A stretch of DNA of 64,000 bases from Nitrosotalea sp. (lineage in GTDB: Archaea; Thermoproteota; Nitrososphaeria; Nitrososphaerales; Nitrosopumilaceae). Below the pieces are notes generated by a model. It saw nothing but the letters and a program-made list of their open reading frames with translations. It did no database searches and had not been told where the DNA came from. Of this stretch, positions 4,464 to 16,902 are shown one piece after another (position 1 is the first letter of the stretch; each line of letters begins with the position of its first letter). Both the position numbers and the translations under genes were made by a program. The stretch lies in assembly GCA_050749105.1 (NCBI GenBank), contig JBOGQT010000042.1, positions 967-64,966 on the forward strand. The letters are read 5' to 3'.

Positions 4464-6815
4464 GTGCAAAAATTAGCGCTACTTCTTTTAGCTCTGACAG
4501 CAAGTATGGTATTCAGTGATGCGTCTGCAACACAGATTCAAATCGTGACAGACCTTGGCAATGTGTTTACAGTGCAAAAGACATCACCTTCTGATACCAG
4601 CAATAATACCAACAATAATATCATTTCAGGAGCAGGACTTGGAACTGCGGCAAGAATCCAAACGGTACAGCCACAGGGAACACTCGTTTACGGTTCTGGA
4701 TATATAGGAACCACATCTCCAATTCAGCCGTATGTTTCAATTCCGCAAGGAACAAACTTTGCGGCATTGATACAAAACAATGACAACTCTGTATCATTGC
4801 CCATGCCGGAATTTTACAGCACGTACCATTATGCCAACGGCCAGCTGGTACAGGAGGCAGGCCCAGCTAACATACTGTCATTTACTGATGCCAAGACACT
4901 AAGCGGTAATCTCTCTCCCACACTTGGCTCAAATGGCATACAGGTCTCTGCCAATCCGTCTGGAAATATAGTCATGAAGATGAATAGTCTTGCGGGAAGG
5001 CAGGTAATACTTCGTGGAACAATACCAACTGGAGATTCTCTGCAGTATGTCCTGTCAGACCCATCAGTTGATCTTACAAAGCTGCCATATGGTACCACAA
5101 ATGGCTGGACTCTTGCAAACTCTCCTGCGTCATTTTCGTTTTCTAATTACAGGCCAACATACAGCTCGGCTTGCGGATATGTCAACCCCTACTATCCGCG
5201 TTATCCGTGGTGGCCAGGCTATTGGGAGTGCTGGCAGTATCAATCTGGTTCCGTTCCAACATCAATGGGCGCATCAGTACCGCTTGATTTTACGGTACCT
5301 GATGCAAAGGGACTGGACGCATATCTTCAAGCAACAAGTTCCCACAGCTACAAATACTGCTACGCCCGCTACGCATGCGGATGGCGTACAGACTATACCA
5401 CCAGTGACACTTCTGCCTCAATCAGCGGTTATCAGACAAGCAACGGGTTTCATGTGACAGGAATCAGTTATTCGAGTTCAAACTACAACGGGGTATCAGC
5501 ACCCTCCAGTGCAGTCTTTGTGATATATGACAAGGCCCCCTACTTGCAGCTCCTAAACTTTGGCAGCAACTTTGAGCAGACCTACACATTTCCAAACGAC
5601 AACAGGCAACTGTATCTGATATCCACCCAGCCAAACGCAGGTGTTCTTGCAGCATCTGCACAACCGTACGATCCAAACACATTCTCGTATCTTAAGATAA
5701 ACAACCTTCCGCCAAACACTCCGTACGAGATAGTAAAGAATGGCATGGTGGGGGCAGCAGGCCTTACGCCGTCTGATGGCAGTCAAGTGATTTTTGACAT
5801 ATCCCAGATAGGGTTTCAGACAACGGACCAGTCGCCTGGAGGCACGCTGATACTATTTCCAAACTCCTTGTGGTACCGTGGTACCGTCACGTCCCTTGTA
5901 CTTGATACAATAAACAAAAACTCGTTTAACTATGACGGCCCATCACAGATTCACATTCCGTTTGCGTTCATTCGAGTTCCAATACCGGCAAAGATGGCAA
6001 TCAGCAATGTATCAATAGATGATACCATAGGTGGTACCATCAAGGTGCCTTACTTGGCAGGAGAGTATGAGCCAGGTACTGCTTTATTGATACCCACACT
6101 TCCAGCCATGAAAGATGTGGGATTTTCTGCCAACGGTACCCCGATGAAGATTGCAATAGCTGATGTCATAGGAGATCCGGGAGTTACAGTATTTTCAGGA
6201 AACAGCGCTTCAGACTCTCACTACAGCCTTACAGCGGCGGTATCAGCAGACGCGGGAACTGACGGCGAGGCAACGGTGATTGCCACACATGACGGCACCC
6301 TCAACGGTATCATCTCTCTTACGGTATCAGCAAGTGCCCATTACTATGACGGATCCTCGACCCTGACAGTTTACGCCAAGACATATGTTAACGGGAACCT
6401 TGTTGGAACAAAGATGCTGTACACATCACAGCCTCCTGCCGGATACTCTTCGCAGGAAATTACAAGTTATACCATAACCGACAATCCTCAACAATACGGC
6501 AGCTATGGCATCGCGCAGACAAACCCGTATCCGTATGCGGTCAACTCGTACAACATTTCCAACCTGCAAGTATCAGGAACCGTAACCGTGCAGGCCCACA
6601 CCGGAGACCTTGTAGAGTTTGAGGTATATGCAGACGAGAGCGCAAAAAGCAGCCTTGTAGCTACATCGCACATATCAGGAGGCTGCGGATATCTTACTAC
6701 CGACGTAAACACTGGAAGGGAAGTAGGGATTTTTTGTACCACGATACCAACCAATTACGTCAGCGAATCATCAGCGCAGGTAAGCCTTGACGAGGGCTAC
6801 ATTCTGACGGGATGA
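4464..6815 (+). CDS. large secreted Ser/Thr/Gly/Tyr-rich protein, function unknown
   Basis: 783 aa, GTG start, signal-like N-terminus LALLLLALTASMVFSDASA. Markedly GC-richer than its neighbours. Confidence 0.6.
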   Translation: MQKLALLLLALTASMVFSDASATQIQIVTDLGNVFTVQKTSPSDTSNNTNNNIISGAGLGTAARIQTVQPQGTLVYGSGYIGTTSPIQPYVSIPQGTNFAALIQNNDNSVSLPMPEFYSTYHYANGQLVQEAGPANILSFTDAKTLSGNLSPTLGSNGIQVSANPSGNIVMKMNSLAGRQVILRGTIPTGDSLQYVLSDPSVDLTKLPYGTTNGWTLANSPASFSFSNYRPTYSSACGYVNPYYPRYPWWPGYWECWQYQSGSVPTSMGASVPLDFTVPDAKGLDAYLQATSSHSYKYCYARYACGWRTDYTTSDTSASISGYQTSNGFHVTGISYSSSNYNGVSAPSSAVFVIYDKAPYLQLLNFGSNFEQTYTFPNDNRQLYLISTQPNAGVLAASAQPYDPNTFSYLKINNLPPNTPYEIVKNGMVGAAGLTPSDGSQVIFDISQIGFQTTDQSPGGTLILFPNSLWYRGTVTSLVLDTINKNSFNYDGPSQIHIPFAFIRVPIPAKMAISNVSIDDTIGGTIKVPYLAGEYEPGTALLIPTLPAMKDVGFSANGTPMKIAIADVIGDPGVTVFSGNSASDSHYSLTAAVSADAGTDGEATVIATHDGTLNGIISLTVSASAHYYDGSSTLTVYAKTYVNGNLVGTKMLYTSQPPAGYSSQEITSYTITDNPQQYGSYGIAQTNPYPYAVNSYNISNLQVSGTVTVQAHTGDLVEFEVYADESAKSSLVATSHISGGCGYLTTDVNTGREVGIFCTTIPTNYVSESSAQVSLDEGYILTG

Positions 6816-6935
6816 AATCAGCGAGTTTTATCAGACGTTGCACAACAGGGACAAAATGAAATCCTTATGAAACATTTACAGATTTTGATGATTTTTCAAT
6901 ACAACCTCGATTATGAAGTTCAAATTTGGTCGATC

Positions 6936-6947
6936 CCATGTCATTGA
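6936..6947. repeat. 12-bp direct repeat CCATGTCATTGA (left copy)
   Basis: Identical to 8469-8480 and abuts the cassette E1 terminal inverted repeat. Confidence 0.85.
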
Positions 6948-7078
6948 GGGGGTAAAGACAGCGGAGGCTCATTTGACCTTTTTTGTTCGTAATTTTTTTT
7001 CTTGTTCTAATCTTTATGCGCAAAAAAACATCGTAATAAACATTTAAACCGTCAAACTTGAGAATTACAATACGGATA

Positions 7079-7396
7079 ATGGATTCTAATAAAGAACCTT
7101 CAAAAACTGAGCCGTTAAAAGAATTCTTCCAATCTAAAGAAAATCTAACTCGGTTTAATGAATTAATGATGGATCTAACTACCCAAATATTCAATGGACA
7201 GATTGAACCTTTAGACGCTTATTCCGAATTTATTGGAATATATCAGAAAGTATTTCCCAAGTCCTCTGATCACCCCATGGTTAGAGAAATACTATTTGAC
7301 AGATTTCAAACATATTTGTTAATTTGGATCCTACGCGAATTAGGACGAGTAAAACGAAATCAGGTATCGAAGCGAAAACAGTCTAACAAATCATAA
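7079..7396 (+). CDS. hypothetical protein (E1 cargo)
   Basis: ORF 7058-7396, with the likely start at MDSNKEPSK. Its upstream part would overlap the cassette end. Confidence 0.35.
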   Translation: MDSNKEPSKTEPLKEFFQSKENLTRFNELMMDLTTQIFNGQIEPLDAYSEFIGIYQKVFPKSSDHPMVREILFDRFQTYLLIWILRELGRVKRNQVSKRKQSNKS

Positions 7397-7403
7397 CCCG
7401 TAA

Positions 7404-7793
7404 TTAATGAATAAATTTTGAAGCTACTATAAGGCCTACAATAGCAGATACGGCTATACTGCCAATTTTGATCGCAGTATCTATTTTCCACTTTCTATGT
7501 TCTTTTCGTTCCTTTTCCTCAACATCTTTTTTCTCTTGTTCGCTGGCATGTGCATCCTTTATGATGTCATGAGTAACAGTTCTAGGTGCGTAATATGGTA
7601 TTTGGGGTGATTCTGTTTTAGGCTTGGATAGTTTCTGTAGTTTATCGATAACATCAAGACCCTTCTTGGTAGTATCTAGGAATATGTTAACATCATCCAT
7701 TGTTATATCCTCTTCCTCCTCACATTCGCAATCGTCTAAGAGTTCTCCGCAATCAGGACAGAGTTCCTCCTCGTCATACTTTTTCCTTGGCAT
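7404..7793 (-). CDS. acidic Cys-cluster protein with C-terminal TM anchor (E1 cargo)
   Basis: Likely start MPRKKYDEEELCPDCGELLDDCEC; C-terminal TM segment IGSIAVSAIVGLIVASKFI. Confidence 0.45.
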   Translation of the reverse strand: MPRKKYDEEELCPDCGELLDDCECEEEEDITMDDVNIFLDTTKKGLDVIDKLQKLSKPKTESPQIPYYAPRTVTHDIIKDAHASEQEKKDVEEKERKEHRKWKIDTAIKIGSIAVSAIVGLIVASKFIH

Positions 7794-7899
7794 AACGATC
7801 TGTAGATATTGTTGCAAATAAATCATGATTATAGAAAGATGAATAAGTCAATGCCAATCTCGTTGAACTATTTTCAAACTTCCTGCATAGTTACACAAT

Positions 7900-8325
7900 C
7901 TACATTTTTCTTTGGGTTTCACTTACTTTATCGTAAAGTTCCTTCATGGATATATCGTGCATTTGTTTTGATTCATCATCAAAACCATACGTAACATCAA
8001 AAACGATTCTAATTTCAGTCACTCTTTTACCATGGTTCTTACCAAAGTCAGTAACTTTAGCAAATACATGGTAGCTACCATCTCCAAAACCGGTCTCCGA
8101 AGTAATAAAATTTCTTGGTTTATTTGTTGTATCTTCTATCGTTTCTATTTTGTCAAAAAGTGGAAATTTTAATTCTTCTTGTCTTTTACACCATTCTTGA
8201 TATTGATTGTCAGATAGAATGGCCATTGGATCGCCTATTATGACACAACCTGAGTCGATATAGATCGTACCTATTTCTTTCCATTCACTTTTTGATTCCT
8301 CATCTGTCTTTCCAGAATCATTCAT
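7900..8325 (-). CDS. hypothetical protein resembling DUF4241 (GFGDGSY motif) (E1 cargo)
   Basis: 141 aa with SGCVIIGDP and ETGFGDGSYHVF motifs, recalled from the DUF4241 family. Not verified by search. Confidence 0.4.
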   Translation of the reverse strand: MNDSGKTDEESKSEWKEIGTIYIDSGCVIIGDPMAILSDNQYQEWCKRQEELKFPLFDKIETIEDTTNKPRNFITSETGFGDGSYHVFAKVTDFGKNHGKRVTEIRIVFDVTYGFDDESKQMHDISMKELYDKVSETQRKM

Positions 8326-8468
8326 TCTAGAACAAGCACCTACATATTTTTAAAATTATCATCGCGTTTGATCTTGTTGTTCACCTAAGAAAACTTTTCA
8401 ACAAATCATAACTTTCGTCAATTTCTAGTCTAAAAAAGGTCAAATGAGCCTCCGCTGTCTTTACCCCC

Positions 8469-8480
8469 CCATGTCATTGA
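8469..8480. repeat. 12-bp direct repeat CCATGTCATTGA (right copy), junction between E1 and E2
   Basis: Identical to 6936-6947. It sits between a CCCCC run (8464-8468) and a GGGGG run (8481-8485). Confidence 0.85.
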
Positions 8481-8529
8481 GGGGGATATAGTTAGGACTA
8501 GATTTTGCACTAAAACAAACTTTGATACT

Positions 8530-9252
8530 TTATGCCTTCTTGACAGAAAGTTTGACGTCTATGTTTGTAGATTCTGAATTTGTATTATCTATGACTATAT
8601 TCCAGACTCGAGTCTTTGGTACCTCAAATTTTAGTGAGTATCTAGTAACTTGTTCACTTTCTAATTCATAGTTAAAATCATCCTCTTGCTCAAATCGTCC
8701 AAGATTTCTGTTATCTAGAACAAATATGTTGACTGGTAGATCGGAACTGATTTTGCCTGTCACTAGATCGCCTTCTTCAAAATTATAGCCATATGTTTCA
8801 AACATATGATCGTCCAACGCTTTGCGTTCGTCTACAAGTTCTTCTTCTTTGCCAGATTGTATTTCTTCAGTAGGTTCTATCTCTCGAACAATATAGTTGG
8901 CTACCTTATCACATGCATCTCGAATATTGCCTTTTGTAAATCGCTTCTGTTCCATATGAAGAAGCATAACCCCAACCTTTGCACCCTCTTCTACAAAAGG
9001 AATGATGTCAATTCCTTCATTTATTGCAAAACCTACCTCTTGGTCTACTGATGGTGAGGGGTGATCTTTTGTAATTATGGCTATTAGAGCATCTGATTTT
9101 TTTATCGCATCATGAATCTTTTTTGAGAGTGGTTTTCCGAATTGAACATCATGCTCTGCAGTATAGAATTCTATGCCTCTTACGCTTAAAGCCAATGTCA
9201 TTTGTTTCATAATTTCTGTATCTGCAAATGGATAACTAATGAAAACTCGCAT
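8530..9252 (-). CDS. TIR-domain protein with C-terminal all-beta domain
   Basis: N-terminus MRVFISYPFAD...IHDAIKKSDALIAIITKDHPSPSVDQEVGFA fits TIR_2-type topology, with a Glu at the usual catalytic position. Confidence 0.65.
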   Translation of the reverse strand: MRVFISYPFADTEIMKQMTLALSVRGIEFYTAEHDVQFGKPLSKKIHDAIKKSDALIAIITKDHPSPSVDQEVGFAINEGIDIIPFVEEGAKVGVMLLHMEQKRFTKGNIRDACDKVANYIVREIEPTEEIQSGKEEELVDERKALDDHMFETYGYNFEEGDLVTGKISSDLPVNIFVLDNRNLGRFEQEDDFNYELESEQVTRYSLKFEVPKTRVWNIVIDNTNSESTNIDVKLSVKKA

Positions 9253-9289
9253 TTTTTTCTCTTATCATAATTATTAATTGGTTATAAAT

Positions 9290-9305
9290 TAGATTTTGCA
9301 CTAAA
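9290..9305. repeat. internal copy of the 16-nt TAGATTTTGCACTAAA motif
   Basis: Identical to 8499-8514, which is part of the E2 left end. A diverged inverted copy lies at 11964-11979. Each copy lies at the 3' end of a minus-strand gene. Confidence 0.7.
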
Positions 9306-10113
9306 TAACGTCAGTTTGTTGCAAAGTGATTACTCTGATATCCAACGATTCACAAACAACTTCGATAAATGCATCACTTTCTTGACATAAAATGGTAACT
9401 CTTGTTTTTCCCAAAGGTTTTGAATATAGTTTACAAAAAATTGCTCTATATCCAATTGCCTGTCCTAATGCTTCCCAATTCAGTCTTCGTTTGGCTTCAA
9501 TAATATCGTATGAACCATCTTTGGCTACATGTAACATATCCATGTACTTTGCAGATGTGTAGGCAAATGATTTGATGAAGTTTCTTGTAGATTCGTCTGT
9601 TGCAGAGTCTGGTTCTATTGGGTTAACAAGAGGATATTCTCTCTTAATTTCTTCTGTATAGCCGTATTGCGTTGCATTTTTTATGAAGTCGACAATTAAT
9701 TGGTCTTCTGGTAAATTTTTTGCCGCTTCGTTTAGATTGTTCTCAACAATATCGTTTACATATGTAGGACCTTGAGAAATCAAGTTTTGTAGTAATTGTT
9801 CTTTTTCCCATGGAAGTGTATAGTAAATAATTTCCTCAGAGTCATCATAGATGCCAAGAACGCCATTTACATAGATATTTCCGCTATTTGATCTAAGAGT
9901 AGTTACTCCTCTACCAGTCCGTTTTTTAAGCATATTTCTATTTTTAAGAAATTCATTACGGTATATCTCACCATCGTCAAAATTTGAGATTATTTGATAG
10001 TCTACCTTCCAGATTTCCTTTATCTTGTTTAACATTTCAATTATTTCAGAGTATTTTGTATGATCATTTTCTGTCCAAGAATCTCCCTGTCTTTGCCAAA
10101 GAGTAATTTTCAT
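9301..10113 (-). CDS. PD-(D/E)xK nuclease, RecB/Cas4-like C-terminal domain, unknown N-terminal domain
   Basis: C-terminal YMDMLHVAKDGSYDIIEAKRRLNWEALGQAIGY gives the D ... ExK ... QxxxY motif series. Confidence 0.6.
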   Translation of the reverse strand: MKITLWQRQGDSWTENDHTKYSEIIEMLNKIKEIWKVDYQIISNFDDGEIYRNEFLKNRNMLKKRTGRGVTTLRSNSGNIYVNGVLGIYDDSEEIIYYTLPWEKEQLLQNLISQGPTYVNDIVENNLNEAAKNLPEDQLIVDFIKNATQYGYTEEIKREYPLVNPIEPDSATDESTRNFIKSFAYTSAKYMDMLHVAKDGSYDIIEAKRRLNWEALGQAIGYRAIFCKLYSKPLGKTRVTILCQESDAFIEVVCESLDIRVITLQQTDVI

Positions 10114-11244: not shown

Positions 11245-12010
11245 AATGATAAAAATTTACAAAGATTTCTACATCTATTCTAAACTATTTTACATCTATT
11301 TTCAAGTATTCCAACAAGGTTGATTTTGATGATTTAAAGAGAAAATGGTATCTTACATAAAGGAACAATTTTGAGTAGCATTTTCTTCTTTAGTGTAAAA
11401 GGGATGCCAGTTCTCACCTTTTTTTGCCAGTTTTTCTATACTTGGTTTCACGACAGACCAGGATACTTTCCACATCCCTTTCCCTTGAGGCTCTATTTTC
11501 ATCACACAGAGTCGGTCCTATCCATTCAGTGTCATCCGCTAAAGGATTTTGTTCAGGAGATACTTCCACGCAGAAAATGACGAGATACTTGACCTAAAGT
11601 CTTACGACTAGCAGGGTTTTTCGCCTAGGGACATTACATTATGCATCTTAGGAATAAAAATATTTAATCTAAAATCAAAAAAAAGCTCAAAAAGCAGCAG
11701 CGCGTAACCAAATCATGATCCATACGATCACATGGTACATTACAAAAAGTGGGTTGCCAGAAACAGTTCAGATTGAGGTACCAGAAACTAAGGTTCCACT
11801 AAACGTGATTATTCCATACGACCAAATCAAAAGTTAAACAGATGATTGTTGTTAGTGGATTGATCCACAACCCTCATATTTTTTTTAGGTTTTGGCCTTT
11901 TACGAGAAGCGTCGGATTTTTGTGAATAAACAGAGGGATTCTATTTTTTATACCTAATGTAAATAGTGCGAAATCTTCAGTCCTAACTATATCCCCCGCA
12001 TAGTATGGAA

Positions 12011-12480
12011 GGGGTACAGACATGGTCATACAATTTGACTGTGAATGAAAGCTATAACGAGTATTATGATTTGACTGAAAAATAGGAAAAAATCAAAATT
12101 ATTAAGAAAGAACCATGTACAAATATTATTGAAAATTAACAGTGATACAATTAACGTTATCGAAAGCTCCGACGAACTTTTAAATCAAATCTTTTCAGAA
12201 CGTCAAAGGTCACTGCAAACTAAGAAAATTGAACCAAAATTAGAGTTGTTAATCAAGAACCTGCTAGAAAACCTACGTTCTGCCTTGGATTATCTTGCAA
12301 ATCAAATAGCAAAGGAAAATGCTTGTAATGGTAATAAAGTATCATTTCCAATATATTCTCAAACTAGTGATAAATTCCAGCAATTTATGAAGGATAAATT
12401 TCCTAATTTAGAAAAAAAGAATACAGAACTTTTCGAGAAAATTGAGTCTATTCAATACTATAACAATCAAGAAGGAAACG
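12011..12480. mobile_element. possible third, truncated cassette (E3)
   Basis: GGGGTACAGACATGGTCATACAATTTGAC at 12011 resembles the E1 end (15/26). Base composition switches abruptly at about 12480. Confidence 0.3.
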
Positions 12481-12769: not shown

Positions 12770-15349
12770 TTGAGCCCGAAATACGACCATGATAGTACCC
12801 GTCCCCCCGGACTCCCACCTGTTAACCACTTTTTAAGATACACCTCATTTCAAGTCATGAGCTCAGGACGATCAACCATTACAGTACTTGGGTTTGATGA
12901 CAATGGCAATGCTGTAGGAATACCAAGAGAAGAACAGATTCACACAGGAATCTTTGGCGAAGTAGGTTCAGGAAAGAGTACGGTTGATACAATCATGATA
13001 AACCAGAACATAAACCGAGAAGAAGGATTTCTTGTGCTTGACCCGCACGGCTCACTTGCTCAGGATGTATTACGGATGATTCCAGACTCAAAAAAGGACC
13101 GTGTAATCTACATCAGCCTTGACGCAGTAAGACAGTGGGGCAAGACTGTCAAGATAAATCCCCTTGAGGTCAAGACAGGAGACGACAGATATGTTGTTGT
13201 CATGAATCTTGTAAATGCACTTCGAAACATTTATCGAGACTCTTGGGGTCCGCAGCTTGAAGCATTACTAAGAAATGGTGCAAATGCACTGGTTGAGATA
13301 GAAGGCTCCACTCTGAGAGATCTCGTAAAGATAATAACAGATGACAGGATGCGCTCGATATATATCAACAAGGTTGCAAACAGGGATGTAAGACACTTTT
13401 GGAATGTCCTATTTCCACAACAGTACCAGAGGGATGCAGGGCGCTCGGCATACAACAAGCTAGACAAGATCCTGTCAACTCCACAGGTTGCAGCAATGCT
13501 GGATGCATCCCAGTCTACAATTGATTTTGCGGACATCTTAGAGTCCGGAAAATGGGTGATAATAGATCTATCCACTGGAGGCTCTGATGATGTGATATCA
13601 TTTGCGGGAACGATACTAATCAACATGGTCTATGTAGAGGCCAGAAAAAGATTTAGCAGGACTGACATTTCTCCAAAGCCTTTTTTCATGTATATTGACG
13701 AGGCTCATCTCTTTGCACCCTTTGCACTTCGTGAGCTGCTAAATACCATGAGGAAGGCAAACGTCAAGGTTACAATCACGGCCCAGACAATCAACACATT
13801 TCCAAGAGAGTTTGCAAAGGAGATATCTGCACTTGTAAGAACCATTGTCTGCTTCAAGGTTGATACCGAGACTGCAAGCATGTTCAAGACTGTAATGCCG
13901 GTACCGGTAGAGACCCTGACATCGATGACGCATGGTAGATTTGCATTTTACTCGCAGGGACATACACCGTTGTCTGGCCTTCTCAAGGCATTTCCTATAG
14001 TTGACAGAAAAAGAGACTGGATGGAACTTGCAAGATACAGCATGGAACGGTATGGCGAGTCTACCTCACTTCAAAAATATATCATGCCAACAAAGACGCA
14101 AAATGAGACACCGCAGATAACACCGCTTGAGGCTGCAATCTTGCTCCTATTGTACAACGAAAACATGGACATGACAAAAGAAGAGATCTATGATTTTGTC
14201 TCTAAAATGTTTCAAGTAGAGAAGCGAGATGTATTTGAAAAACTCGATGACATTTTGGTAAACCATATGCGGCTGGTTGAACGCAAAAATGTTACTGTAT
14301 ATGATGGTGATGGAAAACTTGCCACGCGATATGTGCTATCAGTTCTTGCATACAATAGTTTTTTTTCACAGGCTGCAATGGGAAGACGCGCGGGCTCTCC
14401 TCTACATCTTGCTACCATATTTATGATAATGCGTATGCAGCAAAAGGCCTTCAAGTTCTGCATTCCAGACCTTGGAGACAGAGGAGAACAAAGGCCGGAC
14501 CTCTTGATCTTTGAGCCACAACAGACACAGGATAAAGGCAAGACAATATCTTATGATCCTCTACACTGGTCTGAAAAGATAATCGCAGTAGAGGTAGAGA
14601 CGGATCCGACAAAACATGAATCTCAAGTAGTTGAGAATTTTAGGAAAAACTTTGATCTTGGGTACGACATATGGTTTGTAGTATTTTCTCAAAATCACAA
14701 ACAGTATATCATGGATACAATGAACAAAAACGGAATTGACCAACAGTTCTACAACATAATACTTGTTCCGCCGGAATCAGTAGAATGCATCTCCAACGTA
14801 CAGAACAACTCTGTTACTCATCTTACTCCAGAGGAACTTGAAGTATACAATGTGCTAAAAGATGGAGGAACGGTACCATGGATTGCAGAAAAAACACGCT
14901 TTTCGTCCTATGATGTAATGGGCATACTATGGAAGCTTGAACAAAAAGGAATAACAGAACGTGGGTATGCTGAGACAAAAGAGACAGAGCATGATCCTGT
15001 GTCAGGAAAGAAGACAACCGAGACCAAAAGGCAGGAATATTTTATTCCAACAGAAGAAGCTAGAAAACTTGTAGAATCTCCGAATAGATCTGCCGTAAGC
15101 GTAACAAATAACAAAACAGAAACTCCACAAAAGACAGAGTCGATAGCAGAAGGAAATAAAAAAAACGTCATGGAGAAACCTGCGTTACAGGAAGGGTTTG
15201 ACTTTACACTGCTTAGCGACAAGGGACTAAAGGATCTTGTCACGAATCCAAAGTACGGCAGTCTTGCAAAAAAACTTCTTGAAAACCGTGGAAATTACGT
15301 ATCAATAAAGGATGGAAAGGTAAAACTGAGAAAGAAGGCTAGGAAATGA
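12770..15349 (+). CDS. HerA/FtsK-superfamily (VirB4/VirD4-like) ATPase fused to a PD-(D/E)xK-like and a wHTH domain
   Basis: Walker A GEVGSGKST, LVLDPHGS, Walker B FFMYIDEAHLF. Later motifs are RPDLLIFEP...IIAVEVETD and a wHTH-like LTPEELEVYNVLKDGG...ILWKLEQKGITERG. The start may be the MSSGRS codon at 12857. Confidence 0.7.
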   Translation: MSPKYDHDSTRPPGLPPVNHFLRYTSFQVMSSGRSTITVLGFDDNGNAVGIPREEQIHTGIFGEVGSGKSTVDTIMINQNINREEGFLVLDPHGSLAQDVLRMIPDSKKDRVIYISLDAVRQWGKTVKINPLEVKTGDDRYVVVMNLVNALRNIYRDSWGPQLEALLRNGANALVEIEGSTLRDLVKIITDDRMRSIYINKVANRDVRHFWNVLFPQQYQRDAGRSAYNKLDKILSTPQVAAMLDASQSTIDFADILESGKWVIIDLSTGGSDDVISFAGTILINMVYVEARKRFSRTDISPKPFFMYIDEAHLFAPFALRELLNTMRKANVKVTITAQTINTFPREFAKEISALVRTIVCFKVDTETASMFKTVMPVPVETLTSMTHGRFAFYSQGHTPLSGLLKAFPIVDRKRDWMELARYSMERYGESTSLQKYIMPTKTQNETPQITPLEAAILLLLYNENMDMTKEEIYDFVSKMFQVEKRDVFEKLDDILVNHMRLVERKNVTVYDGDGKLATRYVLSVLAYNSFFSQAAMGRRAGSPLHLATIFMIMRMQQKAFKFCIPDLGDRGEQRPDLLIFEPQQTQDKGKTISYDPLHWSEKIIAVEVETDPTKHESQVVENFRKNFDLGYDIWFVVFSQNHKQYIMDTMNKNGIDQQFYNIILVPPESVECISNVQNNSVTHLTPEELEVYNVLKDGGTVPWIAEKTRFSSYDVMGILWKLEQKGITERGYAETKETEHDPVSGKKTTETKRQEYFIPTEEARKLVESPNRSAVSVTNNKTETPQKTESIAEGNKKNVMEKPALQEGFDFTLLSDKGLKDLVTNPKYGSLAKKLLENRGNYVSIKDGKVKLRKKARK

Positions 15350-15491
15350 ATTGACCTTAAAAATAATATCGAGAATAAATTACATGAGTGAAACAATAGC
15401 AGTGCCAAAAGAACTGGTAGAAAGAATCATAAAAAAGATGGAATGCGTAGAGAGTCGAATCAAAAGACTCGATAAATTATCAAAGGTATAA

Positions 15492-16742
15492 TTACGAACC
15501 TGACTTTTCTTTCAAGACTTTTACAAGCATCTCTTTTAGTTCGTTGTAATCTTTCTTGAGATCGGCCACATCTTTGGCATAGTTTTCAATTAACGTTTCT
15601 TTGTCCTGGCCACTTGCCTCCCTCTGGGCCATCTTGATTGCTACCTGCTCATCAATCACATAGCCACACTTGACACATCTCTTTACGCCGATAGTGTTCT
15701 GCTCGCTGCACCTGGGGCATGTCTTTAGAGTCAGCTCCCTGACGCTTTCCTGTTTTAACAATCCGTGCTCCTTGAGCACGGCCTCCTCTAGATCCGACTC
15801 GCTCAGGTGAACGTAAACATCCATCATATCCGTTCCTTTTTTCCAGTTGCCAAACTTTTTGAGTATCTGGTCTGGGTGCTTACGCGCCACGTCCGTAAGC
15901 TTGGTATGCCTGAACAGATAATTCCACACCTTCTTTTTTATGCCAGCCTTTTTTGCAGCTGATTTGACAAGCTTGCGCAAGTATCCGTAACCAAGAATCT
16001 TCTTTGTTTGAAAAGACCACCAGAGGGGAGCGTCAAGATCGTCTTTGTATGGATGCTGTGAGATCCACTCCAGCAAAGGTCTGTATGAGAGTAACATAGG
16101 GATTGTCTTCTCCCCGGTCTTTCCAGTGGTGGATATGACTGCAATCTTGTCCTTGAAAAGCACTCCGCCTACTGTCATGTTCAGCAGCTCTCCTGGACGA
16201 AATGCTCCCTCGTACATGCATAATACCATTGCCCTGTCCCTGATGGAAAACCTGGATACGATTGAGATTGCATTTATTAGAGATTCAATCTCTTCTACTG
16301 TGAGCAGGTCACCTGGTTTTATCTCCCTCTTCCTTCCGAGCTTGACAAAGTTTTCAGGTCTTATCCACGAGACCTCCTCGACATAATCCTTCCCATCTCT
16401 CTTCTCCCCTATCTCTTCTGCTTTTGCAAAGTGTACCAGTCTCTTTAGCGTCTCCGCATATGCACGGTTTGTCTTGCCAGCGTACTGGTCTCCTGTTATG
16501 TTCCTCAATGCTTCCTTACAGTCATCCCTTGTCAGGTCCCCAAGTGGGATCTTCGTCTTGTCAAACCACTGCAGTATGCGCGGCAGCCTGCAGCCATAGT
16601 AGACAACCCTGCCTTTTGAGAGACCATGGTCTGACAGGGCATCAAGGAACCTTGATGCCGCCTGCCCGTTACCTGAACTTGCAAGCCCCCTCTTGATGGT
16701 CTCTATCCTCTTGGTGTAGTTGTAAATCAGGTCGCTTGTCAT
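15492..16742 (-). CDS. tyrosine recombinase/integrase with C-terminal zinc ribbon
   Basis: Box II-like LFRHTKLT...GTDMMDVYVHL (H-x-x-R ... Y) and CPRC...CVKCG. The start is taken at MTSDLIYNY, because the longer ORF reads through the tRNA. Confidence 0.85.
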   Translation of the reverse strand: MTSDLIYNYTKRIETIKRGLASSGNGQAASRFLDALSDHGLSKGRVVYYGCRLPRILQWFDKTKIPLGDLTRDDCKEALRNITGDQYAGKTNRAYAETLKRLVHFAKAEEIGEKRDGKDYVEEVSWIRPENFVKLGRKREIKPGDLLTVEEIESLINAISIVSRFSIRDRAMVLCMYEGAFRPGELLNMTVGGVLFKDKIAVISTTGKTGEKTIPMLLSYRPLLEWISQHPYKDDLDAPLWWSFQTKKILGYGYLRKLVKSAAKKAGIKKKVWNYLFRHTKLTDVARKHPDQILKKFGNWKKGTDMMDVYVHLSESDLEEAVLKEHGLLKQESVRELTLKTCPRCSEQNTIGVKRCVKCGYVIDEQVAIKMAQREASGQDKETLIENYAKDVADLKKDYNELKEMLVKVLKEKSGS

Positions 16743-16815
16743 CCTGACTGCAATTCCACGGCTTGGCTTTAAGGAAGGTTTATGATTTTGTTCATCCGGC
16801 GCCGAACTTGGAAGA

Positions 16816-16902
16816 TGGCGCGGGGAGTGGGATTTGAACCCACGGGTCCTTGCGGACATGGGATTAGCAATCCCACGCCCTACCAGGCTAGGCGACCCCC
16901 GC
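16816..16902 (-). tRNA. tRNA-Ser (anticodon GCU), CCA encoded
   Basis: 87 nt: acceptor stem GCGGGGG/TCCCCGC, anticodon loop TTGCTAA, long variable arm GTCCGCAAGGACCC, T-arm GTGGG-TTCAAAT-CCCAC, 3' GCCA. Confidence 0.9.

What the first reader, a model, noticed from the sequence alone, without database searches (positions are those of the whole stretch)
8530..10113. TIR-domain protein paired with a RecB/Cas4-like nuclease on a mobile cassette: candidate archaeal defence module
Gene 8530-9252(-) starts MRVFISYPFAD and carries ...ALIAIITKDHPSPSVDQEVGFA. This gives the beta-A FISY strand and a Glu at the position used by NAD-cleaving TIR domains. A C-terminal region of about 120 aa follows and looks all-beta. 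48 bp upstream (co-directional), gene 9301-10113(-) ends with YMDML...DIIEAK...QAIGY. That is the D / ExK / QxxxY motif series of RecB-family PD-(D/E)xK nucleases. It sits behind an unassigned N-terminal domain of about 170 aa. Each gene's 3' end carries the same 16-mer TAGATTTTGCACTAAA (8499-8514, 9290-9305), which is also part of the cassette E2 end. This suggests each gene was captured as its own sub-cassette. TIR sensor/signal generator plus separate effector is the established logic of Thoeris-like systems. I do not recognise a TIR plus RecB-like nuclease pair in a thaumarchaeon as a described system.
Basis: partly seen in the sequence, partly recalled or inferred. Interest (0 to 1): 0.7.

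Follow-up and report, generated by a model that had tools for sequence, protein, structure and literature searches.

The report
Archaeal TIR gene beside undescribed nuclease
Two neighbouring genes on an integrated element of an ammonia-oxidising-type archaeon encode a TIR immune-signalling enzyme and a previously unclassified DNA-cutting enzyme, and relatives of that nuclease turn up next to three unrelated kinds of TIR systems, so the pair is a plausible but unproven new variant of the Thoeris antiviral system.

Summary
Gene 8530-9252(-) encodes a TIR domain plus an all-beta DUF1883 domain. Its Glu72 aligns with the catalytic Glu of Thoeris ThsB TIRs. Gene 9301-10113(-), called NUC here, lies 48 bp upstream on the same strand. 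It has a confidently modelled C-terminal PD-(D/E)xK nuclease domain closest to NucS/EndoMS. D192, E206, K208, Q218 and Y222 are invariant in 17 homologues. Its N-terminal alpha/beta domain matches nothing in Pfam or PADLOC, or in PDB by sequence.

NUC is a rare family. About 6 of about 17 informative contexts have a TIR gene nearby, and the TIRs are of three unrelated kinds: TIR-DUF1883, ThsB with Cap9/10/11 and 8xMP, and TIR-SAVED in type III CBASS. In other genomes TIR-DUF1883 is preceded by a multi-pass membrane protein, which fits effector swapping.

The coupling is not obligate. NUC also occurs without TIR and moves as a single gene, and TIR-DUF1883 occurs alone. The repeated 16-mer is better read as a shared intergenic or promoter element than as a capture scar.

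Verdict: a plausible Thoeris-like module with a new nuclease effector (about 0.45). The main rival is two independent defence genes side by side (about 0.35). This is a new variant of a known kind.

The parts
8530..9252 (-). TIR-DUF1883 protein gene (240 aa)
   Evidence: ORF. Pfam TIR_2 5e-11 and DUF1883 3.4e-5. AF2 model pLDDT 82.8. Foldseek hits to TIR, NDT and GOLD structures.
8878..9252 (-). TIR domain (residues 1-125). Catalytic-position Glu72 is encoded at 9037-9039.
   Evidence: E72 is invariant in 10 homologues. It aligns in an invariant column with the Glu of published ThsB TIR domains.
8539..8847 (-). C-terminal all-beta DUF1883 / GOLD-like sandwich (residues 136-238), a putative sensor or interaction domain
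   Evidence: TIR-DUF1883 is listed as a predominant prokaryotic TIR architecture in PMC9153377.
9253..9300 (-). 48-bp spacer between NUC and TIR. On the minus strand it holds a TATA-like ATTTATAA about 35 nt before the TIR ATG, preceded by the 16-mer.
   Evidence: Sequence. The motif AGTGCAAAATCTAAT(T/C)TAT is conserved upstream of the solitary TIR gene in L001. The promoter role is inferred.
9301..10113 (-). NUC: 270-aa two-domain nuclease gene of an unclassified family
   Evidence: ORF. No Pfam, PADLOC or PDB sequence hit. AF2 model pLDDT 93.3, pTM 0.86.
9319..9651 (-). PD-(D/E)xK nuclease domain (about residues 155-265). Codons: D192 at 9538-9540, E206 at 9496-9498, K208 at 9490-9492, Q218 at 9460-9462, Y222 at 9448-9450.
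   Evidence: Foldseek: NucS 2vld 8.4e-5, EndoMS 5gke/5gkj, AF1548, then the nuclease domains of Can2, Card1, Cdn1 and Cap4. An archaeal-virus 146-aa protein scores 3.5e-7. Wider relatives hit PDDEXK_9, NERD and NucS_C.
9769..10113 (-). N-terminal alpha/beta domain (residues 1-115). Element order is b-a-b-a-b-b-a, with a conserved basic loop KKRTGxG...LRSxSG. A helical linker follows (residues 117-150). Function unknown; candidate ligand sensor.
   Evidence: Secondary structure. Conservation. A profile of this domain finds nothing in PDB sequences. The thioredoxin-like topology is my reading of the element order and was not verified by structure search.
8499..8514 (.). 16-mer TAGATTTTGCACTAAA, copy 1, 15 nt after the TIR stop. 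It is the outer end of the ~95-nt repeat.
9290..9305 (.). 16-mer, copy 2. It overlaps the NUC stop codon and lies upstream of the TIR TATA-like box.
8432..8516 (-). Full copy of the ~95-nt intergenic repeat: 16-mer, then GTCCTAACTATAT, then CCCCC-N10-GGGGG, then TAAAGACAGCGGAGGCTCATTTGACCTTTTTT
   Evidence: Two other assemblies of the same DNA were compared. One (L030) ends exactly at 8432, the edge of this repeat; the other (L029) ends at 13126.
11962..12050 (+). Diverged copy of the same repeat, inverted relative to 8432-8516. Together the two copies bracket the 3.5-kb segment that holds TIR and NUC.
   Evidence: I2: 44 nt, 77%. sequence shows the extension to AGTGCGAAATCT with a 2-nt indel..

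Best explanation
The two genes form a two-component, Thoeris-like abortive-infection module carried as cargo on an integrated archaeal mobile element.

Inferred mechanism: the TIR-DUF1883 protein senses infection, perhaps through its beta-sandwich domain. It uses its Glu72 active site to convert NAD+ into an ADP-ribose-derived signal. NUC binds that product, or otherwise responds to TIR activity, through its N-terminal alpha/beta domain. This unleashes its C-terminal NucS-like PD-(D/E)xK nuclease on DNA.

Shown here: the folds, the intact catalytic residues, the gene adjacency, the mobile-element context, and the recurrent but non-obligate neighbourhood of NUC relatives with TIR systems.

Inferred: signal production, ligand sensing by the N-domain, nuclease activation, and any antiviral effect.
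For: (1) TIR fold and catalytic-position Glu.

(2) NUC has a PD-(D/E)xK domain with invariant D/ExK/QxxxY, fused to a separate conserved N-domain. That is the layout of signal-activated nucleases such as Can2, Card1 and Cdn1, which appear among the structural hits.

(3) TIR genes lie near NUC in the window, L007, L006, L010, L011 and L019/L025. That is about 6 of about 17 informative contexts. The TIRs are of three unrelated architectures (TIR-DUF1883, ThsB_TIR, TIR-SAVED), and the NUC genes fall in three separate clades of the NUC tree.

(4) The Cap10-Cap11-Cap9-ThsB-8xMP neighbourhood persists across NUC proteins only 43% identical, and in two gene orders.

(5) Effector-swap pattern: in L002, L003 and L009 the slot immediately upstream of TIR-DUF1883 holds a ~246-aa multi-pass membrane protein. 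In the window that slot holds NUC, and L007 has both. Yirmiya et al. used this same logic to define new Thoeris effectors, which include DNases.

(6) In bacteria NUC sits 19-27 bp after the last gene of signalling-type defence operons.
Against: NUC occurs with no TIR within about 3 kb in L008/L017, L013, L016, L024, L027, L028, L020 and L022. TIR-DUF1883 occurs alone in L001.

In L007 the two genes are divergent with an ORF between them. NUC moves as a single gene: L013 and L025 are 82.6% identical in nucleotides only within the ORF.

The TIR gene appears to have its own promoter. The TIR domain scores better against generic or effector-type TIR models (TIR_2, CAP12, SAVED_TIR) than against ThsB.

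The N-domain of NUC matches no known ligand sensor. In L006/L011 and L019/L025 the neighbouring system already has its own effector (8xMP or TIR-SAVED).
Confidence: 0.45

Rival explanations
1. These are two independent single-gene defence modules that merely sit side by side in the cargo or defence region of a mobile element. TIR-DUF1883 would be a self-contained NAD+-depleting abortive-infection protein, with sensor and effector in one chain. NUC would be an autonomous restriction-like nuclease whose N-domain recognises DNA or a modified base.
For: TIR-DUF1883 is solitary in L001, next to Hachiman and UDG. Its TIR resembles effector-type TIRs more than ThsB. NUC is found with HNH and SRA nucleases (L008/L017), with UDG, an NDT-like protein and a thymidylate-synthase-like protein (L027), and near SIR2-HerA (L024), all without a TIR. 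NUC transfers as a single ORF. The orientation of the pair is not conserved, and each gene has its own promoter-like region.
Against: NUC lies next to three unrelated TIR architectures in three NUC clades. That is more than I would expect from defence-island clustering alone (the expectation is my estimate, not a computed statistic). The N-domain is net acidic apart from one basic loop, which is not typical of a DNA-recognition domain (sequence). The slot upstream of TIR-DUF1883 is elsewhere filled by a membrane protein typical of Thoeris effectors.
Confidence: 0.35
2. NUC is a selfish, free-standing endonuclease gene, comparable to a homing endonuclease. It inserts at the 3' ends of other genes in mobile DNA and has no functional tie to the TIR gene.
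For: Single-ORF mobility with similarity that stops at the ORF ends. The gene sits at the 3' end of unrelated operons. There are neighbouring small HNH genes in L007 and L008. Many stand-alone copies of the nuclease domain exist, including one in an archaeal virus.
Against: No relatives were found in the viral contig collection. The non-nuclease N-domain is conserved and shows no DNA-binding signature. The gene is recurrently placed beside signalling-type immune operons rather than inside conserved host genes.
Confidence: 0.1
3. The pair serves the mobile element itself, for example as an addiction or exclusion module, or in DNA processing during transfer. It is not antiviral.
For: The genes lie between a HerA/VirD4-like ATPase with an integrase and a block of small element genes. 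They are bracketed by element-specific repeats.
Against: Homologues of both genes lie in chromosomal defence islands next to Hachiman, CBASS, Cap9-11/ThsB, HEPN_AbiV and OLD-like genes, not next to conjugation genes.
Confidence: 0.05

Closest known systems
Thoeris (ThsB TIR plus effector; types I-XI and further predicted types, Yirmiya et al. 2025, bioRxiv 10.64898/2025.12.03.692087)
   Same: A small TIR protein with the catalytic Glu lies next to a separate two-domain candidate effector. The order is effector upstream, TIR downstream. The effector is swapped among related TIR genes. The location is in defence or mobile regions. DNase effectors are among the predicted types.
   Different: The candidate effector belongs to a family absent from Pfam and PADLOC, and its N-domain is not SLOG, Macro, or any sensor I could recognise. 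The TIR carries a DUF1883 domain and scores weakly against ThsB models (E 0.03-0.06). The pairing is not obligate. The host is an archaeon. No signalling has been demonstrated.
Thoeris operons with the type IV CBASS ancillary genes Cap9 (QueC), Cap10 (TGT) and Cap11 (OGG)
   Same: NUC relatives in L006, L010 and L011 lie next to a TGT-Ogg-QueC-ThsB_TIR-8xMP operon. Such TIR operons are described. The Cap9/Cap10 biochemistry is described in bioRxiv 10.1101/2025.04.06.647259.
   Different: The window has no Cap9/10/11 genes. In those loci an 8xMP membrane protein already occupies the effector slot, and NUC is separated from it by 287 bp in L006, by a small ORF in L011, or is divergent in L010.
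Ligand-gated PD-(D/E)xK nucleases of CRISPR type III and CBASS (Can2, Card1, Cdn1, Cap4)
   Same: Two-domain layout with a non-catalytic alpha/beta domain plus a PD-(D/E)xK nuclease. Their nuclease domains are among the structural hits. NUC follows a CD-NTase gene in L019 and L025.
   Different: There is no CARF or SAVED match. TM-scores over the whole chain are only 0.25-0.30. In L019/L025 the CBASS operon already encodes a TIR-SAVED effector.
NucS/EndoMS mismatch endonuclease
   Same: It is the best structural match for the C-terminal domain (2vld 8.4e-5; 5gke; 5gkj). From my knowledge of NucS, it uses the same D...ExK...QxxxY motif order. Some relatives give weak NucS_C Pfam hits.
   Different: The N-terminal domain has a different element order from the NucS beta-barrel. 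The family is patchy and rare (158 clusters among 1.84 billion representatives) and lies in mobile or defence contexts, so it is not a housekeeping repair gene.
TIR-DUF1883 proteins
   Same: Same architecture, noted as predominant among prokaryotic TIR proteins (PMC9153377).
   Different: I found no function reported for this architecture. Here I add that the thaumarchaeal subfamily alternates between a multi-pass membrane partner, NUC, or no partner.

Membership tests
TIR domain (NAD+-cleaving class) | Flavodoxin-like TIR fold recognised by profile and by structure | tested here: met
   Pfam TIR_2 scores 43.6 bits against a cut-off of 28. Foldseek hits the SARM1, SPARTA and TIR-STING TIRs. 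A profile of the family hits PDB TIR chains.
TIR domain (NAD+-cleaving class) | Catalytic Glu at the start of the alphaC helix (W-x-x-x-E motif position) | tested here: met
   E72 is invariant in the family. It aligns in an invariant column with published ThsB TIR domains and lies in helix 67-78 of the model.
TIR domain (NAD+-cleaving class) | NADase or cyclase activity | not testable with these tools
   This needs biochemistry.
Thoeris-type system | The TIR gene and effector gene form a conserved gene pair across genomes | tested here: inconclusive
   The same pair is present in L007, but divergent. NUC lies near other TIR types in L006, L010, L011, L019 and L025. NUC lacks a TIR in at least 8 loci, and TIR lacks NUC in L001, L002, L004 and L009.
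Thoeris-type system | The effector carries a recognisable sensor domain for an NAD-derived signal (SLOG, Macro, etc.) | tested here: not met
   The N-domain has no significant Pfam, PADLOC or PDB-profile match. A weak YpsA-SLOG hit at E 0.046 over residues 4-46 is not significant. A new sensor fold is not excluded.
Thoeris-type system | Signal production, effector activation and virus protection | not testable with these tools
   This needs experiments.
PD-(D/E)xK nuclease superfamily | Core fold with D...(D/E)xK catalytic residues | tested here: met
   D192, E206 and K208 are invariant. Foldseek hits NucS, EndoMS, AF1548 and restriction enzymes. Relatives hit PDDEXK_9, NERD, NucS_C and PDDEXK_4.
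Cas4 / RecB-family nuclease in the strict sense | QxxxY motif | tested here: met
   Q218 and Y222 are invariant.
Cas4 / RecB-family nuclease in the strict sense | Four-Cys Fe-S cluster (Cas4) or an associated helicase domain (RecB) | tested here: not met
   Only two conserved Cys (C243, C254) and no helicase domain. ACE1/Cas4-family structures are only weak hits, E about 0.1.
NucS/EndoMS | N-terminal beta-barrel DNA-binding/dimerisation domain plus a C-terminal nuclease | tested here: not met
   Only the C-domain aligns, 74-145 columns. The N-domain is alpha/beta.
CBASS | A CD-NTase gene in the operon | tested here: not met
   I found no CD-NTase among the window ORFs scanned between 171 and 17700. 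One is present only in the distant loci L019 and L025.
TIR-DUF1883 architecture | A DUF1883 beta-sandwich C-terminal to the TIR | tested here: met
   DUF1883 scores 24.1 bits against a cut-off of 26, so it is marginal by Pfam's threshold. Homologue P0010 carries a precomputed DUF1883 hit, which marks as weak. The model shows an all-beta sandwich with pLDDT 85-93.

The most novel reading that the evidence does not exclude
NUC may define a new class of effector whose N-terminal alpha/beta domain is a previously unknown sensor for a TIR-generated NAD-derived molecule. It would work as a plug-in nuclease that attaches to any TIR-containing system. Those would include Thoeris-like pairs (TIR-DUF1883), Cap9/10/11-assisted ThsB systems, and type III CBASS. 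In that last case the NAD+ breakdown product of the TIR-SAVED 'terminal' effector would itself act as a second messenger in a two-tier cascade.
Probability: 0.2. Interest if true: 0.8.

Novelty: new variant of a known kind. Interest (0 to 1): 0.55.

Why it matters
If the pair works together, it would add an archaeal Thoeris-type system with a nuclease effector from a family that current defence catalogues (PADLOC 2.0, Pfam) do not recognise. The effector's N-terminal domain would be a new candidate receptor for TIR-derived signals.

The same nuclease recurs beside ThsB, TIR-DUF1883 and TIR-SAVED genes. This gives a concrete, testable hypothesis about cross-talk between TIR enzymes and downstream effectors, including inside CBASS.

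If the genes are independent, the result is still useful. It defines a rare, mobile, two-domain NucS-like nuclease family that marks defence islands in Nitrosopumilales-type archaea and in some bacteria.

Tried and rejected
- **Sequence searches of NUC.** Searches against Pfam, PADLOC and PDB chains gave nothing significant.
- **N-domain profile.** A profile of the N-domain alone against PDB sequences gave only chance hits. The thioredoxin-like reading therefore rests only on the order of secondary-structure elements.
- **N-domain-only proteins.** Pfam scans of proteins that match only the N-domain were uninformative.
- **Viral contigs.** There are no relatives of NUC or of TIR-DUF1883, and no copy of the intergenic repeat.
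- **att duplicate.** I looked in the window for a duplicate of the tRNA-Ser gene that would mark the far end of the integrated element. Only chance matches of 13 nt or fewer appeared, so the element's far end is undefined.
- **Structured RNA.** Folding the three repeat copies as RNA gave z-scores of -0.84, -0.48 and +0.77. I rejected a structured RNA.
- **Casposon idea.** I considered that the TIR/NUC pair is part of a casposon, because L002 has a Cas1 gene next to TIR-DUF1883. I found no Cas1 among the window ORFs scanned near the pair, so I did not pursue it.
- **Preprint tables.** I searched the supplementary tables of the Yirmiya et al. preprint for a matching nuclease effector category. 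The stored tables are truncated and gave no answer.
- **246-aa membrane partner.** This partner of TIR-DUF1883 is absent from the window, by HMM search of all six frames.
Full report
**1. What is in the sequence**

The two ORFs are exactly as described: 8530-9252(-) of 240 aa and 9301-10113(-) of 270 aa. They are co-directional and 48 bp apart.

The region lies in lower-GC DNA, 0.34 against about 0.39-0.44 in the flanks. On one side are a HerA/VirD4-like ATPase (12770-15349), a tyrosine recombinase (15492 to about 16800) and tRNA-Ser(GCT) at 16816-16902. On the other side is a block of small unannotated genes. This is the signature of an integrated element of the kind catalogued in Thaumarchaeota (PMC6563490).

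Homologues of both proteins come mostly from Thaumarchaeota or Nitrosopumilales-type MAGs. I did not test the window's taxonomy directly.

Two other public assemblies carry identical DNA. One of them (L030) ends exactly at 8432, the edge of the local repeat described below. The other (L029) ends at 13126.

**2. The TIR protein**

- Pfam TIR_2 is above its curated threshold (E 5e-11). ThsB_TIR, CAP12-type TIR and nucleoside 2-deoxyribosyltransferase give weaker, sub-threshold hits.
- PADLOC's best match is the TIR part of a SAVED-TIR effector.
- An AF2 model built on 10 homologues has pLDDT 82.8. It shows a flavodoxin-like domain (residues 1-125) and an all-beta domain (residues 136-238).
- Foldseek matches the first domain to the SPARTA, SARM1 and STING-fused TIRs and to the sister NDT/DNPH1 fold. 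It matches the second domain to GOLD-type beta-sandwiches.
- Pfam calls the second domain DUF1883, just below threshold.
- Glu72 is invariant in the family. In a MAFFT alignment with published ThsB TIR domains taken from the Yirmiya et al. supplement, a ThsB-like TIR from L006 and a TIR-SAVED from L019, only two columns are invariant. Glu72 is one of them, at the W-x-x-x-E position.
- TIR-DUF1883 is a known, common prokaryotic architecture with no assigned function that I could find (PMC9153377).

**3. The nuclease (NUC)**

- There is no significant hit in Pfam, PADLOC or PDB sequences.
- The family is rare. An exhaustive profile search of 1.84 billion representative proteins gave 158 clusters at E <= 1e-3 and 27 at E <= 1e-10. 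Many of them match only the C-terminal 80 residues.
- The AF2 model built on 17 homologues is confident: pLDDT 93.3, pTM 0.86.
- The C-terminal domain matches NucS (2vld, 8.4e-5), EndoMS and AF1548. It then matches the nuclease domains of Can2, Card1, Cdn1 and Cap4 and several type II restriction enzymes. It also matches a 146-aa protein of an uncultured archaeal virus (3.5e-7).
- D192, E206, K208, Q218 and Y222 are invariant in 17 homologues. In a set of 100 wider relatives E206 is invariant and D192 and Q218 are at least 90% conserved.
- A few distant relatives reach Pfam PDDEXK_9, NERD, NucS_C and PDDEXK_4.

'RecB-like' is acceptable in the NucS sense. 'Cas4-like' is not, because there is no four-Cys cluster.

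Residues 1-115 form an alpha/beta domain with element order b-a-b-a-b-b-a, followed by a helical linker. Its most conserved feature is a basic loop, KKRTGxG...LRSxSG..YVNG. The domain as a whole is slightly acidic. The element order and the 'YVNG' strand recall a glutaredoxin-like fold without the CxxC motif. That is my reading only. A profile search against PDB sequences found nothing, and I could not run a domain-only structure search.

**4. Do the two genes belong together?**

I collected about 20 loci with NUC relatives. Two pairs of these are the same arrangement (L008/L017 and L019/L025), which leaves about 17 informative contexts. I scanned all of them for TIR domains with Pfam and with a custom TIR HMM.

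A TIR gene lies nearby in these loci:
- **The window.**
- **L007.** NUC is 80% and TIR-DUF1883 58% identical. The genes are divergent and about 460 bp apart, with a 98-aa ORF between them.
- **L006 and L011.** The order is TGT-Ogg-QueC-ThsB_TIR-8xMP-NUC, all co-directional.
- **L010.** The same operon is present but divergent from NUC.
- **L019 and L025.** The order in L025 is TRIP13-HORMA-TIR_SAVED-CD-NTase-NUC; L019 holds the HORMA-to-NUC part. The gap before NUC is 19-22 bp.

TGT, OGG and QueC are the type IV CBASS ancillary proteins Cap10, Cap11 and Cap9. Thoeris operons that carry them have been described.

In a neighbour-joining tree, the TIR-associated NUC genes fall in three separate clades. 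The Cap9-11/ThsB context appears with NUC proteins only 43% identical to one another.

No TIR is present near NUC in:
- L008/L017 (HNH, SRA, Fic)
- L013 (MBL, an E2-E1-JAB fusion, a membrane protein, MBL)
- L024 (near SIR2-HerA)
- L027 (UDG, an NDT-like protein, a thymidylate-synthase-like protein)
- L028, L016, L020 and L022, and the more distant relatives L014 and L015

L013 and L025 carry NUC genes 80% identical in protein and 82.6% in DNA. The similarity stops at the ORF ends, and the genes sit at the 3' end of unrelated operons. NUC therefore travels as a single-gene module.

From the TIR side:
- In L002, L003 and L009, TIR-DUF1883 is immediately preceded by a ~246-aa protein with several hydrophobic helices and no Pfam match.
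- That family is also present in L007 and absent from the window.
- In L001 the TIR gene is solitary, beside Hachiman and UDG.

The slot upstream of this TIR subfamily therefore holds either a membrane protein, NUC, or nothing. This is the effector-swap pattern used to define new Thoeris types.

**5. The 16-mer and the 'cassette'**

The exact 16-mer at 8499-8514 and 9290-9305 is real.

Read on the coding (minus) strand it is TTTAGTGCAAAATCTA. At 9305-9290 it directly precedes a TATA-like ATTTATAA about 35 nt before the TIR start codon. The stretch AGTGCAAAATCTAAT(T/C)TAT is conserved upstream of the TIR gene in L001, which has no NUC.

The other copy is the first part of a ~95-nt repeat with this structure:
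- the 16-mer
- GTCCTAACTATAT
- CCCCC-N10-13-GGGGG
- TAAAGACAGCGGAGGCTCATTTGACCTTTTTT

The repeat occurs at three places:
- in full on the minus strand at 8516-8432
- diverged on the plus strand at 11962-12050
- in part on the plus strand at 6935-6984

Each copy lies between two co-directional genes. The copies at 8432-8516 and 11962-12050 are inverted relative to one another and bracket the 3.5 kb that hold TIR and NUC.

Separately, the segment 6948-8468 has perfect 37-nt terminal inverted repeats. It is flanked by a 12-13-nt direct repeat, CCATGTCATTGA, and has no transposase inside. This looks like a non-autonomous insertion.

The repeats do not fold better than shuffled controls.

I conclude that the 16-mer is part of a shared intergenic element (promoter, operator, terminator or recombination site). 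It is not evidence that each gene was captured separately. The comparative data do, independently, show that both genes move as single units.

**6. Mechanism and weighing**

The best-supported reading is a Thoeris-like pair. The TIR-DUF1883 protein would make an NAD-derived signal, and NUC would be a ligand-gated NucS-type nuclease that kills or arrests the infected cell.

The catalytic equipment, the two-domain effector layout, the mobile or defence context and the repeated TIR neighbourhood are shown. Signal production, sensing and activation are inferred.

The main rival is simple co-residence of two autonomous defence genes. Its support is the non-obligate association, the single-gene mobility, the separate promoters and the effector-type flavour of the TIR domain.

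I put the coupled model at about 0.45 and the independent model at about 0.35. A selfish-endonuclease reading gets about 0.1 and an element-maintenance reading about 0.05.

My sense that TIR adjacency exceeds the defence-island background is a rough estimate. TIR genes are a small minority of defence genes, yet they appear in about 6 of about 17 informative contexts. This is not a computed statistic.

**7. Novelty**

TIR signalling with swapped effectors is established, and DNase effectors have been predicted. The concept is therefore not new.

What appears new is the effector family itself, which is unrecognised by Pfam and PADLOC. Also new are its unidentified N-terminal domain, its occurrence in archaea, and its recurrent placement beside three unrelated TIR architectures, including a CBASS operon that already has a TIR-SAVED effector.

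The most interesting reading not excluded is that NUC senses a generic TIR product and acts as a plug-in second-tier effector.

Noticed in passing
window 6935-6984, 8432-8516, 11962-12050: A ~95-nt intergenic repeat occurs in three copies. Its parts are the 16-mer, GTCCTAACTATAT, a CCCCC-N10-13-GGGGG palindrome and a 32-nt tail ending in T6. Each copy lies between co-directional genes. Its function is unknown (promoter, terminator or recombination site), and its RNA folding is no better than shuffled controls.
   Followed up: partly
window 6948-8468: This 1.5-kb segment has perfect 37-nt terminal inverted repeats (GGGGGTAAAGACAGCGGAGGCTCATTTGACCTTTTTT). It is flanked by a 12-13-nt direct repeat, CCATGTCATTGA. 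It carries three small ORFs (7058-7396+, 7404-7826-, 7900-8325- DUF4241-like) and no transposase. It looks like a non-autonomous transposon-like insertion. A DUF4241-like gene also neighbours NUC in L007.
   Followed up: partly
window 12770-16902: This stretch holds a HerA/VirD4-like ATPase (859 aa; PADLOC mad8 1.9e-17), a tyrosine recombinase with a C-terminal zinc ribbon, and tRNA-Ser(GCT). It is the likely end of an integrated element. I found no duplicated att sequence within the window, so the other end is undefined.
   Followed up: partly
L006 1883-6351; L011 2289-6792; L010 1683-6789: Nitrosopumilales-type loci carry a TGT(Cap10)-Ogg(Cap11)-QueC(Cap9)-ThsB_TIR-8xMP operon. This is a Thoeris operon with type IV CBASS ancillary genes, here in archaea, and a NUC homologue is always next to it.
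   Followed up: partly
L013 5992-6786 and L025 6001-6795: NUC genes 80% identical in protein and 82.6% in nucleotides sit at the 3' end of two unrelated bacterial operons. One is MBL, an E2-E1-JAB fusion, a membrane protein and MBL. The other is TRIP13-HORMA-TIR_SAVED-CD-NTase. The DNA similarity stops at the ORF ends.
   Followed up: yes
L002 5223-6702; L003 1307-2786; L009 1190-2689; L007 3793-4530: A ~246-aa multi-pass membrane protein family with no Pfam match lies immediately upstream of TIR-DUF1883. It is a likely membrane effector partner. In L002 the pair abuts a Cas1 gene, possibly a casposon. In L009 it abuts an OLD-like ATPase-TOPRIM gene.
   Followed up: partly
L004 6001-7128 (protein P0005): In a Thaumarchaeota MAG, a TIR-DUF1883 homologue carries a 140-aa N-terminal extension with a weak Phage_integrase match. 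This may be a fusion or a mis-called start.
   Followed up: no
window 4464-6815: A 783-aa ORF has a signal-peptide-like N-terminus and Ser/Thr/Asn/Gly-rich, low-complexity sequence, with no Pfam match. It is probably a secreted or surface protein encoded beside the mobile block.
   Followed up: no
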